64,000 nt of DNA, taken from Eledone cirrhosa (taxonomy: Eukaryota). Both the position numbers and the translations under genes were made by a program. The DNA lies in NCBI GenBank assembly GCA_964016885.1, contig OZ024741.1, positions 63,674,001-63,738,000 on the forward strand, read 5' to 3'. Of this stretch, positions 1,225 through 46,018 are shown in pieces; position 1 is the first letter of the stretch; every line of letters begins with the position of its first letter. The notes below the pieces were generated by a model. The model had not been told where the DNA came from, ran no database searches, and saw nothing but the letters and a program-made list of their open reading frames with translations.

Positions 1225-1839
1225 ACGTGGGAAAGTAAGAAATCGGAGAATAGACTGTTAAAACATGTTTATTTAAAACACCACCTACGTACGTTTCGCC
1301 CAGTTGGGCTTCTCAAGGGCATAAGTAATTAAAAGTGTTCCTTACATTGCTCGGAAAGAGTTTTTGGGCTTAAATCCACGTCAAGGTTCATTGCTCGCAA
1401 AAATAGCCGGTTTTGATTTTGCAGCAGGTCAAGGGAGGTAACTCTGGCTGGTGTTAGGGCAGTCTTTCCCGGACAAATTTTTTTATCCGCTACAAGATGA
1501 GGTTACAACCTTACCATTGTCGATACGCATGTAATCAACGCTTATTTTGAGAGTTTTTTTTCCGCATCTGTTTGTCTGAGTCGTTTGAGGCTGGGTCTGG
1601 TATGCAAGAATAGCTTCCTGGGTGTTATTTTGCAGCGCCTGCTCGGCGGGTGTTAAGACTTGTTGATCCTTAACCATCTGAAGAAGGATATTTTTAAGCG
1701 ATGTGTACAACTTATCGCTGTTTCAGCTCTGCTGTTGATGAGCTCGTGGGGTGCAGTTATGATGTGGTAGAGCTCCATGAGGCAAAGATCGCATTTCCTC
1801 TTGAAGTTGTACGGTGCAGCCCTGCCGACAATATCCCAG

Positions 1840-2423
1840 ATAGGGTTATATATAGATGCACTGTAACTAGCCACAATAGCGTTAAACATTTTATAGGGGC
1901 TACCTCCGGCCCGTTCAAAATCAGGTTTCGAACACATCTCCACTCTTTCACAAATAAAAAACTAAGACACTCCACTTCGCTCGCGGATTACATCACATCA
2001 CTAAGGGACTTAAACATCAGCTTTTCCACGCACTGGGATATTGTCGGCAGGGCTGCACCGTACAACTTCAAGAGGAAATGCGATCTTTGCCTCATGGAGC
2101 TCTACCACATCATAACTGCACCCCACGAGCTCATCAACAGCAGAGCTGAAACAGCGATAAGTTGAACACATCGCTTTAAAATATCCTTCTTCAGATGGTT
2201 AAGGATCAGGAGTGAAACCGTGCACCGGATCTCCCTGCAACAAGTCTTAACACCCGGCGGGCAGGCGCTGCAAAATAACACCCAGGAAGCTATCCTTGCA
2301 TACCAGACCCAGCCTGAAACGACTCAGACAAACAGATGCGGAATAAAAAAAACTCTCAAAATAAGCGTTGATTACATGCGTATCGACAATGGTAAGGTTG
2401 TAACCTCATCTCGTAGCGGATAA
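1840..2423 (+). pseudogene. PLE GIY-YIG endonuclease C-terminal fragment
   Basis: VIYRC..HFIGATSGPFKIRFRTHLHSF..STSLADYI..WDIV..CDLCLME..LINSRAE..(C/stop)TH; in-frame TGA at 2163-2165, same frame continues to 2423. Confidence 0.88.
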
Positions 2424-2585
2424 AAAAATTTGTCCGGGAAAGACTGCTCTAACACCGGCCAGAGTTACCTCCCTTGACCTGCTGCAAAATCGAAACAAGC
2501 TATTTTTGCGAGCAATGAACCTTGACGTGGATTTAAGCCCCAAAACTCTTTCCGGGCAATGTAAGGAACACTTTTGATTATTTAT

Positions 2586-2623
2586 GCCCTTGAGAAGCCC
2601 AACTGGGCGAAACGTACGTAGGT
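2586..2623 (+). ncRNA. Minimal type-I hammerhead ribozyme, U3-A8 core variant (inverted copy 1283-1320, minus strand)
   Basis: cc-TTGAGAA-GCCC(aact)GGGC-GAAA-cgtacg-TA^gg; helix I is weak. Confidence 0.7.
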
Positions 2624-2940
2624 GGTGTTTTAAATAAACATGTCTTAACAGTCTATTCTCCGATTTCTTACTTTCCCACGTGCTTGCGCTCTGCTAACTC
2701 TCTAGCTCACTAAATATTAACATTTCGAATATTTAATACTGCCGGCACTAGTATCGAGCACCTTTGGCATACGCTACTTGGCAAATAACTATATGTATCA
2801 CCTATCCTCCCCTGTTTTTCTCTCTCTCGATACGTAAATACTGTATATATATATATATATATATATATATATATTATATATATATATATATATATATATA
2901 TATATATATATATATATATATATATATATATATATATATA

Positions 2941-3129
2941 TGAAAAAGTATGACCCCGACGGCAGAGCTCAAGCCGTTTCGACTGCTATTTCTGGAAATG
3001 GCCGTCGAAACGGCTTGAGCTCTGCCGTCGGGTCATAATTTTTTCCTATTTCCCACTCTACTACCCTAAGTATTGAGTACTCTGGTGCGTTATGGTCCAT
3101 CTGGTTCCTTACCACAATTCCTTTGTTAC
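2941..3129 (+). mobile_element. Short fold-back PLE-pLTR derivative (family A) in (TA)n
   Basis: ~45-bp inverted arms (TGACCCCGACGGCAGAGCTCAAGCCGTTTCGAC) plus ~85-bp tail; contains HHR 3' half GAAA-CGGC(ttgagctct)GCCG-TC; relatives at 38152-38356, 31946-32060, 56452-56494, 61387-61413. Confidence 0.75.
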
Positions 3130-4399
3130 ATATATATATATATATATATATATATATATATATATATATATATAATGTGTGGCTATGTGTATGTATGTGT
3201 TTGCGTTTGTGTGATTGTGTGCTAGTATGTTTCGTTATTAAATACCAGTTTTCATTTATCTCGCATTATGTAAACTTATTTACCCTAGTAAGTGTTTGTT
3301 TACGTTTTTCATATGAATATATTTCATTTGGAGGGCTGGGAATTAGAGGAATCGTTAGACCGTTGTATAAAATGGCTTGCTGTATATAGCCAGGGTTTCT
3401 GGTCCAATCCTGCCAAGTTTATCTCAGCCTCTTACCATTATGGATTCAATATCAAAAGTACCAGTCTGGAAACGATTCTATTTCTTATCCCCTCCCCTCT
3501 CTCTCTCTCTCTCTCTCTCTCTCTCTCTCCCTCTCTCTCTCTCTCTCCCTCTCTCTCTCTCTCTCTATTCCCCTCAATCCGCAGTGGTCAGACGTAGATA
3601 TGAATAGGTTCCTCAGGGTTTAGATACAAAAGACACGTTGTATGTAAAACAAATGTCCTTAGCACTTCATTATGGTCAGTTGAGGCAAAACTCAATAAAA
3701 TTACCTCTTTGAGTATTTTGAGATGCTTTATAAGTCAGAATCGGTCGTTCACAACATATATTTTCTGCCCAGCTCAATGAATCCTGCAAGTCTACATTTC
3801 CACCTGCATGTTATCTTCGATCACTACTTGATTTCTATGTATTGATCCTTAACTTATAATGGTGAGGTAATCTCTGGCACTTTAAACGTGCCGGGAGGAC
3901 TCAACATTCTCCGGAGATATATATATATATATATATATATATATATATATATATATATATAAAGAGAGAGAGAGAGAGAGAGAGAGAGAGAGAGAGAGAG
4001 AGAGAGAGAGAGAGAGAGTGTGTGTGTGTGTATATGTGATAAAGCGGAAGTGACAAAAAGACATAAAAGAAAGAATCCCAGTATTAAACCGGTAGTTTAT
4101 CAACCAACTTCGAAAGGATATGAGGCAAACTTAACATCAGGGATATGCGGTATTTGTTCTGCCTCTTTACATTGAGATGAAGTCCAACCAACGGCAATTT
4201 TGTCTTTAGTCCATCCGGAATCGCCCCAATGAAGTACCAGTAAAGTACTGTAGTTGATTTAAACAACTTTGCTTTTCTCCCGAATCTGTTGGCCTAAATT
4301 AGAAATCAAATTATATATAAGAATATGTTGTAGTTTCCTTGAACCATTGTGTTGGTGTATAACGGAGTATGCTACGACAATACACAATGGACGGTAGAT

Positions 4400-44297: not shown

Positions 44298-44490
44298 TAT
44301 TAATTATTTCTACTTTTGGCACAAGGCCAGCAATTATCCCAGTGTATTACTGGTACTTTATTTTATCGACCCCGTAAGGATGAAAGGCAAAGTTAACCTC
44401 GGCAGGATTTGAACTCAGACCATAAAGGGACGTAACACTATGCTGCAAAGCATGTCATCCGACCCTCTAGTGATACTGCCAATCCACTGT
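44298..44490 (-). mobile_element. Full-length Deu/Nin-core SINE
   Basis: Same motifs as 18190-18383. Confidence 0.88.
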
Positions 44491-44663
44491 CCAAGTTAGC
44501 GATCAACCGAAACGGTTGATCGCTAACTTAGGACTGCTTTTCATTAGACGTGTTTATAAGATGACTTACGTTACTTCGTATGAGATGACATGGGATCAAA
44601 TGGGGTAAAGACGCTAGGCATACTATGCTTATTCAAGGGGAGTATATATATATATATATGTAT

Positions 44664-45475
44664 ATATAGAAAGGATGAATATAAAATGAAAGTGCTTTTG
44701 TTAAAAAAGGAATTTATTAGGTATTGACATATGTTTCTGTAACAGACCGAATACCTATGTATCGCTGCTTGCGTAATCATATAATGTTAGCAAGTATTCG
44801 AAAGCAAATGTATAATCAGTTGTCACTTCTTCAGAGATTTTGGATAAACTGGATAAAATCAGAAAAATTGAAGTATTTATATTAGTAAAAGAGGAAGGAA
44901 CAGAGGGGATAGAATATGACAGATGGTAAAATAATTTACTGCTAAACAAGTATATAATGGGTTTTTAATGAGAATACCATGAGTAAATCTAAATAAGAAT
45001 TTTGGGAGTGCCAATTTTAATCTCTACTTGACCAACTGGACAGTGGACAGGGCTGGTCATTTGGTGCAGTAGTATTAATTATAAAGTGTCAATTGGGGAA
45101 GGGGGAGATTTCGATTGCTACAAAATAACATCAATGCTAGTAGCCAGCTGGTATATGCACTAGGGAATTGAATCAAGAAATCAGAAATCTCATTTTATCT
45201 ATAGCAGTTTGTATTAAAAGGTAAATAATAGAAGAGTTGATAGAATTAAGACTAATAAAGAATGTTCATATCTATTTTGACAATCAAACGGGGATAGAGA
45301 CAGGCGTTCAATCCTGGTAGTATCCTTTTTTAACAAAAGCACTTTCATTTTATATTCATCCTTTCTATATTTCTCCCGAATATAATTTATACTCGTTGAG
45401 CAAACCTGCACGTACGCTGTTCATCTCTAACGTAACGATATATTATCACTACATTATTGATAACCTGAAATTTTA
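44664..45475. mobile_element. Fold-back Naiad pLTR (long inverted arm 44664-45315, short sense arm and tail 45322-45475)
   Basis: 44753-45315 is the reverse complement of 63436-64000; ~47-bp terminal inverted repeat AGAAAGGATGAATATAAAATGAAAGTGCTTTTGTTAAAAAAGGA. Confidence 0.88.
44722..44838 (-). ncRNA. Type-I hammerhead with ~90-nt helix II (copy starting at 63919, plus strand, runs off the window)
   Basis: CTGAAGA-aGTGACAactga..tcggtcTGTTACa-GAAA-catatg-TC; helix I is weak. Confidence 0.62.
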
Positions 45476-45529
45476 TATATATATATATATATATATGAGA
45501 AAAACCACAGACCCTCCATCTCAACTCTA

Positions 45530-45565
45530 CTTTTGAAAAGCAGAAGAACTGCGAAACCGGTAAAG
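45530..45565 (+). ncRNA. Minimal type-I hammerhead, U3-A8 variant
   Basis: CTT-TTGAAAA-GCAG(aagaa)CTGC-GAAA-ccgg-TA^AAG. Confidence 0.78.
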
Positions 45566-45802
45566 GAACCAAATAAATATATATATTTTTTTAAAAATAA
45601 GACTCCAGTTGCATTTTAGATTTCATCTTTTTTTCTTTATACATTCACTCGTGTTGGACATCTTGGTTATTTATCATTTTGTAAAAAAAACCTCACTTTC
45701 TAATATATATATATATATATAATATATATATATATATATAATATATATATATATATATATAATATATATATATATATATATATAATATATATATATATAT
45801 AT

Positions 45803-46018
45803 ATTAAAATAACAGATTAAAGTTTAAGCAAAGAATCGCTGCTTTAACCCTTAACGAGATCTTTTGAAACCCAGAAGATCCCGTTAAGGGTGAAAGCAGC
45901 AATTCTTTGCTTAAACTTTAATCTGTTATTTTAATAAATATTTGCTCTACGGTTCTTATATATTTGATATATATCGAGCCTTCTTCGGATTTTAGTCTTC
46001 AAATTTATTATTATTACT
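45803..46018 (+). mobile_element. Short fold-back element with U4A HHR-like motif in (TA)n
   Basis: ~60-bp inverted arms plus ~85-bp tail; homologous to 21203-21377. Confidence 0.78.

What the first reader, a model, noticed from the sequence alone, without database searches (positions are those of the whole stretch)
1225..46018. Recurrent fold-back layout with TA microhomology at the inversion junction (twin-priming-like integration)
Seen: at least eight insertions from different families read (TA)n-[inverted arm]-[sense arm]-[60-170 bp unpaired tail]-(TA)n (1225, 2941, 22155, 34765, 38152, 38440, 44664, 45803). The inverted arm usually begins where the sense copy has TAT/TATA (CTTTATAC 34990, CTTTCTATAT 45361, TTTAATA 45930, CGTTTATAC 38666, TTCCTAT 3043). 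Four family A copies start at essentially the same point. Established: PLE insertions often have inverted 5' pLTR segments. Inferred: both ends of a cut (TA)n target prime cDNA, one at the tail and one at an internal TA patch, aided by the self-complementarity of (TA)n.
Basis: partly seen in the sequence, partly recalled or inferred. Interest (0 to 1): 0.72.

Follow-up and report, generated by a model that had tools for sequence, protein, structure and literature searches.

The report
Penelope retrotransposons copied from both ends
These are ordinary-looking Penelope-type jumping genes sitting in TA repeats, but their junctions suggest that both broken ends of the target DNA each started a separate copy of the element's RNA, one at a short TA patch, which would explain this group's long-puzzling inverted ends.

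Summary
The layout is real. All 8 listed insertions, and a ninth at 26305-26578, read (TA)n, inverted arm, sense arm, unpaired tail, flank. Tails are 48-163 bp. The two families tied to an ORF are Hydra-clade Penelope-like elements (PLEs). Inverted pLTR plus tail is textbook PLE anatomy, and (TA)n targeting is published for Hydra.

The TA microhomology holds: 3-5 bp in 6 of 7 families, 0.8-1.6 expected, P 2e-5 to 9e-4 (post-hoc cut-off). It lies at the outer flank junction, not the inversion point. Site 1226 has only 1 bp.

At 44669 the inverted arm is 654 bp and shares about 45 bp with a 151-bp tail arm, so it is not a fold-back copy of that arm. That favours two independently primed cDNAs.

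Poseidon PLE is already shown in vitro to extend both strands from two internal starts, reportedly without target homology. What is new is genomic support for two-ended priming and TA pairing at the inner start. Endonuclease resolution at TA patches is not excluded. n is small, one window.

The parts
1226..1839 (-). F1 tail-less (inverted) arm, 614 bp; outer microhomology 1 bp
   Evidence: 17 substitutions in 614 bp, 31-bp and 3-bp gaps versus 2033-2680
1840..2843 (+). F1 tail arm: GIY-YIG C-terminus (Hydra-type CxxC/CxH), 3' UTR with hammerhead-like core near 2590-2620, tail 2681-2843 (163 bp)
2942..3129 (+). Family A fold-back: inverted arm 2943-2991, tail arm about 2994-3129, tail 86 bp
22155..25405 (-). 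F3 insertion: tail-less arm 24675-25405 (microhomology 4 bp), 1.5-kb unpaired middle 23149-24674 (orientation unresolved), partner arm 22263-23148, tail 22155-22262; hammerhead in both arms
   Evidence: Rfam Hammerhead_1 at 25311-25360, 20.1 bits, E 0.0073, below the gathering score of 34
26305..26578 (-).
34768..35055 (+). F4 fold-back: inverted arm 34768-34888 reaches about 21 bp further 5' than the tail arm 34889-35055; microhomology 4 bp; tail 63 bp
   Evidence: against the plain copy 45497-45702
35075..38112 (+). Decayed PLE (RT and GIY-YIG remnants, DKT motif) between (TA)n runs, no inverted arm found
38153..38353 (-). Family A fold-back; microhomology 3 bp; tail 88 bp
38444..38718 (+). 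F6 fold-back: 33-bp inverted arm, 242-bp tail arm; microhomology 4 bp; tail 49 bp
44669..45322 (-). F7 tail-less arm, 654 bp; 44753-45323 is the reverse complement of the PLE 3' region 63430-64000 (5 substitutions in 571 bp); microhomology 5 bp
45323..45473 (+). F7 tail arm, 151 bp: 43-48 bp shared with the other arm plus a 108-bp tail
45497..45702 (+). F4 plain (non-inverted) copy with the same tail end
45805..46017 (+). F8 fold-back; microhomology 3 bp (7 of 8 with one mismatch); tail 84 bp
56453..56494 (-). Family A tail-less stub ending at the same TA patch, no partner arm
58712..60022 (.). Head-to-head inversion in a tandem hammerhead-bearing family (R); left end at a 3-bp TA patch, 4-bp inner microhomology, right flank not (TA)n
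61388..61413 (-). Family A tail-less stub ending at the same TA patch, no partner arm
62507..63445 (+). 5'-truncated PLE ORF with CxCX5C linker and GIY-YIG domain; orients family F7

Best explanation
These are Hydra-clade PLEs and their non-coding derivatives, inserted by two-ended target-primed reverse transcription. (1) The GIY-YIG endonuclease cuts both strands of a (TA)n run (established in vitro for Poseidon; inferred here). (2) One end starts cDNA at a family-specific distal site, the tail end; the other starts at a family-specific proximal site 48-163 nt upstream, 3' of the hammerhead (fixed ends shown; priming inferred). (3) At the proximal site a 3-5 nt UA patch, usually behind a pyrimidine tract, pairs with the TA end and sets the register (enrichment shown; pairing inferred). 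(4) Each cDNA runs a variable distance; both copy the same stretch, which needs strand displacement on one RNA or two RNAs from the same source (inferred). (5) The two cDNA 3' ends are joined through 1-10 bp of microhomology or a natural palindrome (shown for 4 junctions). The product is inverted arm, sense arm, tail.
For: Arm geometry: every tail arm has unique 3' sequence, while tail-less arms have unique 5' sequence at 44669 (611 bp), 34768 (about 21 bp) and 45805 (about 4 bp), so neither arm is a copy of the other there. Fixed ends: family A 4 of 4 tail-less ends and F6 2 of 2 at one point; tail ends shared in A, F4, F6 and F8. F6 copies share the start but have 33-bp and 111-bp arms, and 11 of 11 informative columns group arms by insertion, so the inversions are separate events on one template lineage each (family A 1 of 1). 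Microhomology of 3 bp or more in 6 of 7 families versus 0.8 (random phase) or 1.6 (best phase) expected, P 1.6e-5 and 8.6e-4; threshold-free sum test P 3e-3 and 0.037. Literature: PAc cleaves and extends both strands, starts at two internal sites that bound the tail, and is predicted to be a dimer (PMC11167929).
Against: 1226 has 1 bp only. 2942 has 0 bp strictly; counting family A as a miss gives 5 of 7, P 4e-4 and 9e-3. Hold-out ends give 3 of 5, P 0.023 and 0.14. [quoted passage not shown] Long overlaps between arms (648 bp in F1) are unlike L1 twin priming, where internal duplications have a median of 22 bp. Several inner junctions sit at palindromes, as a self-priming model predicts. A later deletion in a palindrome could mimic the 44669 geometry. 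Only 2 of 7 families can be tied to an ORF. Microhomology at the tail end could not be tested because the downstream template is absent.
Confidence: 0.55

Rival explanations
1. Endonuclease resolution: a palindromic or self-primed DNA intermediate of the element is cut by the TA-preferring endonuclease at the internal TA patch and joined to the (TA)n target. The microhomology then marks a cut site, not a priming site.
For: Craig et al. ascribe the tail to EN-mediated resolution. Fixed ends at TA patches and tail-less stubs are predicted equally. PAc also cuts its own pLTR at AT-rich sites.
Against: PAc genomic ends map onto in vitro RT start sites. The patches are 3-5 bp, and longer unused patches exist, e.g. 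12 bp in F4 and 7-8 bp in F8. It does not by itself explain arms with unique 5' sequence on either side.
Confidence: 0.2
2. First-strand snap-back: one cDNA folds at a palindrome or hammerhead stem, copies itself, and its new 3' end anneals to the far target end at a TA patch by microhomology-mediated joining.
For: Arms share template variants. 26349 is centred on a natural 10-bp palindrome; both family A centres fall within about 5 bp of each other. Palindromic junctions were read as self-priming in PMC3846280.
Against: It cannot make the 611-bp antisense stretch at 44712-45322 or the 21-bp extension at 34768 without later deletion. It gives no reason for one fixed stop when other patches are available, nor for lone stubs at 56453 and 61388.
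Confidence: 0.17
3. The palindromes are inherited units, formed once per family and re-transposed, so shared starts are not independent events.
For: The two family A fold-backs share start, centre and tail end.
Against: F6 copies differ in arm length (33 vs 111 bp) and group by insertion at 11 of 11 columns; F4 has a plain copy. Statistics were counted per family.
Confidence: 0.05
4. Assembly or amplification artefact at (TA)n runs.
For: F7 arms are identical over 43 bp; (TA)n and palindromes trouble assemblers. No reads were available.
Against: Arms differ by 1-6.5% in 8 of 9 insertions, with indels; ends recur at family-specific points; the layout is known in other species.
Confidence: 0.03

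Closest known systems
Hydra-clade Penelope-like elements (Craig et al. 2021, PMC8557442; includes Hydra-1_Obim from Octopus bimaculoides)
   Same: C-terminal GIY-YIG with CxCX5C linker, CxxC and CxH around the conserved E and N, no CCHH, DKT motif, 3' hammerhead, (TA)n target, copies ending at one site.
   Different: The passages and supplement rows seen report no junction microhomology ('microhomolog' 0 hits in the main text). Tails here are 48-163 bp against the 30-40 bp quoted for PLEs. Several cores read TTGAnAA or CAGAAGA rather than CTGAnGA.
Canonical PLE inverted pLTR plus tail (Penelope; Adineta vaga Pen2a, PMC3846280)
   Same: Head-to-head inverted 5'-truncated copy, tail on one arm only, palindromes at the inner junction.
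   Different: Those copies can have 8-10 bp TSDs in non-repeat DNA and were explained by self-priming on an antisense template; here TSDs are unreadable and two insertions have clearly non-nested arms.
Poseidon PAc in vitro (Frangieh et al. 2024, PMC11167929)
   Same: Both strands cut and extended; two internal RT starts bounding the tail; AT-rich target.
   Different: PAc starts in an AC-rich stem-loop not homologous to the target; here the proximal end matches the target by 3-5 bp in 6 of 7 families, and no stable common fold was found. The main text does not discuss inverted pLTR formation ('inverted' 1 hit, a blocking dT).
L1 twin priming
   Same: Two primers from one target, inverted 5' segment, cDNA ends joined by microcomplementarity, internal duplication possible (bioRxiv 10.1101/2024.08.27.596794 passages).
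   Different: L1 uses a poly(A) tail and a spurious internal site with short overlaps (median 22 bp); here the internal site is fixed per family, near the 3' end, and overlaps reach 648 bp.

Membership tests
Hydra-clade PLE | C-terminal GIY-YIG endonuclease after an RT | tested here: met
   tblastn of a 715-aa homologue maps RT and EN remnants in order at 35326-36991, and EN at 62660-63430 and 1845-2150. Pfam gave no hit for these fragments.
Hydra-clade PLE | CxCX5C linker | tested here: met
   CNCVQPGMC in ORF 62507-63445; definition. F1 is truncated before the linker.
Hydra-clade PLE | No CCHH; CxxC and CxH around conserved E and N | tested here: met
   62507 ORF: CKLC..E..N..CNH; F1: CDLC..E..N..CTH.
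Hydra-clade PLE | DKT motif | tested here: met
   KSDKTNN at 35235-35330, an element without an inverted arm.
Hydra-clade PLE | RWK motif | not testable with these tools
   Window ORFs are 5'-truncated; RWK is present in both database homologues.
Hydra-clade PLE | Placement by RT phylogeny | not tested
   No tree built; no reference set held as loci.
Hydra-clade PLE | Hammerhead ribozyme in the 3' region | tested here: inconclusive
   Pattern hits for F3, F4, F8 and partial cores for F1, F7; Rfam supports F3 only, below gathering score; F1 and F4 gave none. A and F6 were not recovered by pattern.
Hydra-clade PLE | (TA)n target | tested here: met
   9 of 9 tail-less arms abut (TA)n; 7 of 9 tail ends abut clean (TA)n, the two F6 ends abut degenerate runs.
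Hydra-clade PLE | Non-coding families A, F3, F4, F6, F8 linked to a Hydra ORF | tested here: inconclusive
   No ORF homology in these copies; membership rests on layout, target and hammerhead-like cores.
L1-type twin priming product | Inverted segment templated independently of the sense segment | tested here: met
   44669 and 34768 arms carry 5' sequence absent from the tail arm; met for 2-3 of 9 insertions, undecided in the rest.
L1-type twin priming product | Internal primer complementary to the RNA at the outer junction | tested here: met
   3-5 bp in 6 of 7 families; not met at 1226.
L1-type twin priming product | Segments abut with short deletion or duplication | tested here: not met
   Arms overlap by 33-718 aligned bp.
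L1-type twin priming product | Poly(A) priming and readable TSD | tested here: not met
   No poly(A); TSDs cannot be read in (TA)n.
MITE / fold-back DNA transposon | Inverted repeats at both termini, no unpaired tail | tested here: not met
   All nine have a 48-163 bp tail; three tail-less palindromes in the window (25457, 25572, 25956) are a separate class.

The most novel reading that the evidence does not exclude
Two-ended priming is the routine insertion pathway of (TA)n-targeting Hydra PLEs: a dimeric RNP holds two programmed start sites on its RNA, the proximal one carrying a short UA guide that pairs with the self-complementary target like a telomerase template register. The inverted pLTR and tail are then the normal product, and the two ends may even copy different RNAs, as the family A stubs fused to unrelated repeats at 56453 and 61388 hint.
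Probability: 0.25. Interest if true: 0.7.

Novelty: new variant of a known kind. Interest (0 to 1): 0.45.

Why it matters
How PLEs form tandem/inverted ends and why they favour microsatellites are named as open problems (PMC8557442 section 15). The window offers two measurable signatures that link them: non-nested arms, which separate two-ended priming from snap-back, and target microhomology at the proximal start, which differs from the one PLE studied in vitro. Both can be scored on thousands of copies in any Hydra-rich genome. For annotation, these fold-backs are easily mistaken for MITEs or microRNA hairpins.

Tried and rejected
Rfam on the whole window listed only microsatellite-driven and hairpin-driven matches below gathering score among the 150 rows shown of 182. 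Pfam did not recognise the ORF fragments. A homologue search with the 183-aa RT fragment found nothing; the 312-aa EN fragment found two unnamed proteins. My first guess of Neptune clade was dropped after the Hydra motifs matched. Folding six proximal-site regions showed no significant structure, z from -0.9 to 1.6. No ORF oriented the 1.5-kb middle of F3. The 31-bp and 168-bp gaps in tail-less arms lack GT-AG ends, so I rejected intron loss. The automated edge scan found inverted partners at 12 of 83 (TA)n edges; it missed 38353, 38444, 26574 and 58712 because of short or interrupted runs and included MITE-like and internal hits, so it is not a frequency estimate. The F8 copy at 21203 has a 20-bp inversion joined to a SINE-like repeat, not to (TA)n, and was left out of the counts. 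[quoted passage not shown]
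Full report
Setting. The window is AT-rich animal repeat DNA with 56 merged (TA)n runs of 12 bp or more, LINE remnants and PLE remnants. The host is probably a cephalopod; that is a recalled resemblance of its SINEs and was not tested.

Observation. Self-alignment confirms a head-to-head inverted arm abutting (TA)n at all eight listed sites, and at a ninth, 26305-26578. 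Sites 22155, 38153 and 26305 are on the minus strand. Tails beyond the last unique paired base are 163, 86, 108, 63, 88, 49, 108, 84 and 48 bp. The nine insertions fall in seven families: F1 (1226), A (2942, 38153), F3 (22155), F6 (26305, 38444), F4 (34768), F7 (44669), F8 (45805). Arms differ by 1.1-6.5% in eight of nine and are identical over 43 bp in F7, which argues against an assembly artefact for the set.

Identity. A search with the 312-aa ORF at 62507-63445 returned two unnamed 710-715 aa proteins, E about 1e-24. They map RT and GIY-YIG remnants at 1845-2150, 28324-28805, 35326-36991 and 62660-63430. The window's proteins carry the marks that Craig et al. give for the Hydra clade: CxCX5C linker, CxxC and CxH around E and N, no CCHH, DKT. 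That paper says almost all Hydra families insert in (TA)n and lists one from Octopus bimaculoides whose copies terminate at one site. F1 and F7 are tied to such ORFs. The other five families are non-coding 3' ends; hammerhead-like cores were found for F3, F4 and F8, not for A or F6 by pattern.

Microhomology. Read in template orientation, the (TA)n flank continues the partner arm for 1 bp (F1), 3 (A, 38353), 4 (F3), 4 and 4 (F6), 4 (F4), 5 (F7) and 3 (F8); copy 2942 has one discordant base and scores 0 strictly. The null placed the cut at every position of each family's own tail arm (last 200 nt). Six of seven families reach 3 bp against 0.83 expected with random flank phase (P 1.6e-5) or 1.64 with best phase (P 8.6e-4). 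The 3-bp cut-off was chosen after seeing the data; the threshold-free sum is 24 against 7.3 (P 3e-3) or 13 (P 0.037). Counting family A as a miss gives P 4e-4 and 9e-3. Five ends not in the finding gave 3 hits (58712, 33702, 56074), one miss (57634) and one ambiguous end counted as a miss (22101): P 0.023 and 0.14; pooled 9 of 12, P 1e-6 and 4e-4. The effect is real but rests on few families. The 10 nt before the patch are pyrimidine-rich, 69 of 90 against 56% background (post hoc, bases not independent). The match lies at the outer junction; the title's 'inversion junction' is a different place.

Fixed ends. Family A's four tail-less ends (2942, 38353, 56453, 61388) coincide, as do F6's two. 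Tail ends coincide within A, F4, F6 and F8. Other TA patches, some longer, lie within 200 nt in every family, so the patch alone does not choose the site. Where a cleavage site could be placed, the proximal end is 51-77 nt downstream of it (F1, F3, F4, F7).

Which mechanism. If the inverted arm were a snap-back copy of the first cDNA, it could hold nothing that the tail arm lacks. At F7 the stretch 44753-45323 is the reverse complement of 63430-64000, the 3' region of the ORF (5 substitutions in 571 bp). The inverted arm is therefore 654 bp, and the tail arm is 151 bp sharing only 43-48 bp with it. At F4 the inverted arm reaches about 21 bp further 5' than the tail arm, judged against the plain copy at 45497; at 45805 about 4 bp. 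The reverse holds at F1 (193 bp) and 38444 (160 bp). Two independently started, variably truncated cDNAs explain both directions. Later deletion inside a palindrome is the caveat. Inner junctions show about 1 bp (F7), about 2 bp (F4), 4 bp (59478) and a natural 10-bp palindrome (26349) of overlap, which fits annealing of two cDNA ends but also snap-back. The two arms of one insertion share variants that separate it from its sister: 11 of 11 informative columns in F6, five of them one indel, and 1 of 1 in A. Each inversion thus used one template lineage, unless gene conversion homogenised the arms.

Prior knowledge. The inverted pLTR with a tail on one arm is standard PLE anatomy (PMC3846280: passages and the Discussion; PMC8557442: passages, section 15 and supplement rows; PMC8969392: passages). 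Frangieh et al. (PMC11167929: parts 1-2 of 4, covering the main text, and passages; supplements not read) showed that a Poseidon protein cuts and extends both strands and starts at two internal sites bounding the tail, not homologous to the target. L1 twin priming was taken from passages of bioRxiv 10.1101/2024.08.27.596794; its supplements were closed. Passages of 10.1101/2024.12.14.628481, 10.64898/2026.07.22.740005 and PMC13282606 added nothing decisive. Searches found no paper tying PLE inversions to twin priming or TA microhomology; key older papers are outside the library.

What is not supported. Self-complementarity of (TA)n is not required for inversion: Adineta copies with 8-10 bp TSDs invert too, F1 inverts with 1 bp, and several PLE copies in (TA)n here have no inverted arm, e.g. 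35075-38112 and 45497-45702. It may still ease priming. Endonuclease cutting at the patch predicts the same outer junction and is not excluded.

Verdict. Real feature, known layout, known clade and target. The added value is a statistical junction signature and an arm-geometry argument that bear on an acknowledged open question. New variant of a known kind; interest 0.45; two-ended priming 0.55.

Noticed in passing
window 21617-22101, 33702-34130, 58712-60022: A tandem family with a unit of about 420 bp, a hammerhead core and internal TA/CA patches, resembling a non-LTR retrozyme. It also forms a head-to-head inversion at 58712-60022.
   Followed up: partly
window 56453-56872 and 61388-61779: Family A stubs (42 and 26 bp) start at the (TA)n edge and run into unrelated repeats; at 56494 the join has about 3 bp of overlap. 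This could be two different RNAs copied into one break, or later rearrangement.
   Followed up: partly
window 25457-25529, 25572-26944, 25956-26253: Three tail-less palindromes in or between (TA)n runs, MITE-like; the 359-bp arms at 25572/26944 are 99% complementary and enclose two nested insertions.
   Followed up: partly
window 2209-2237 and 22381-22547: The two largest indels between arms (31 and 168 bp) are both missing from the tail-less arm; template skipping by the second RT or later loss.
   Followed up: partly
window 23149-24674: 1.5-kb middle of F3 without ORF homology; GC-rich promoter-like end at 23149-23230 (CCAAT and YY1-like words, motifs recalled) and a 128-bp tandem duplication at 24124-24372. 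Possibly captured host DNA.
   Followed up: no
window 45703-45804: (TA)n run interrupted by a single extra A every 19-23 bp, five times, directly after an F4 end that itself finishes in TAA.
   Followed up: no
window 56558-56746: Tail-to-tail inversion of the abundant SINE-like repeat (copies at 100, 17987, 18186, 41714, 42888, 43127, 44297, 48548), opposite in polarity to the PLE fold-backs.
   Followed up: no
window 32098-32590 and 58311-58660: Two copies of one family, 77% alike, both end at (TA)n about 15 bp after a CTGATGA hammerhead half-core.
   Followed up: no
window 21203-21376: F8 copy with a 20-bp inversion joined to a SINE-like repeat by about 6 bp of overlap, flanked by inverted SINE-like pieces rather than (TA)n.
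   Followed up: partly
window 32615-33672, 51231-51440, 57634-57750: Further hammerhead-bearing fragments between (TA)n runs with no inverted arm found.
   Followed up: partly
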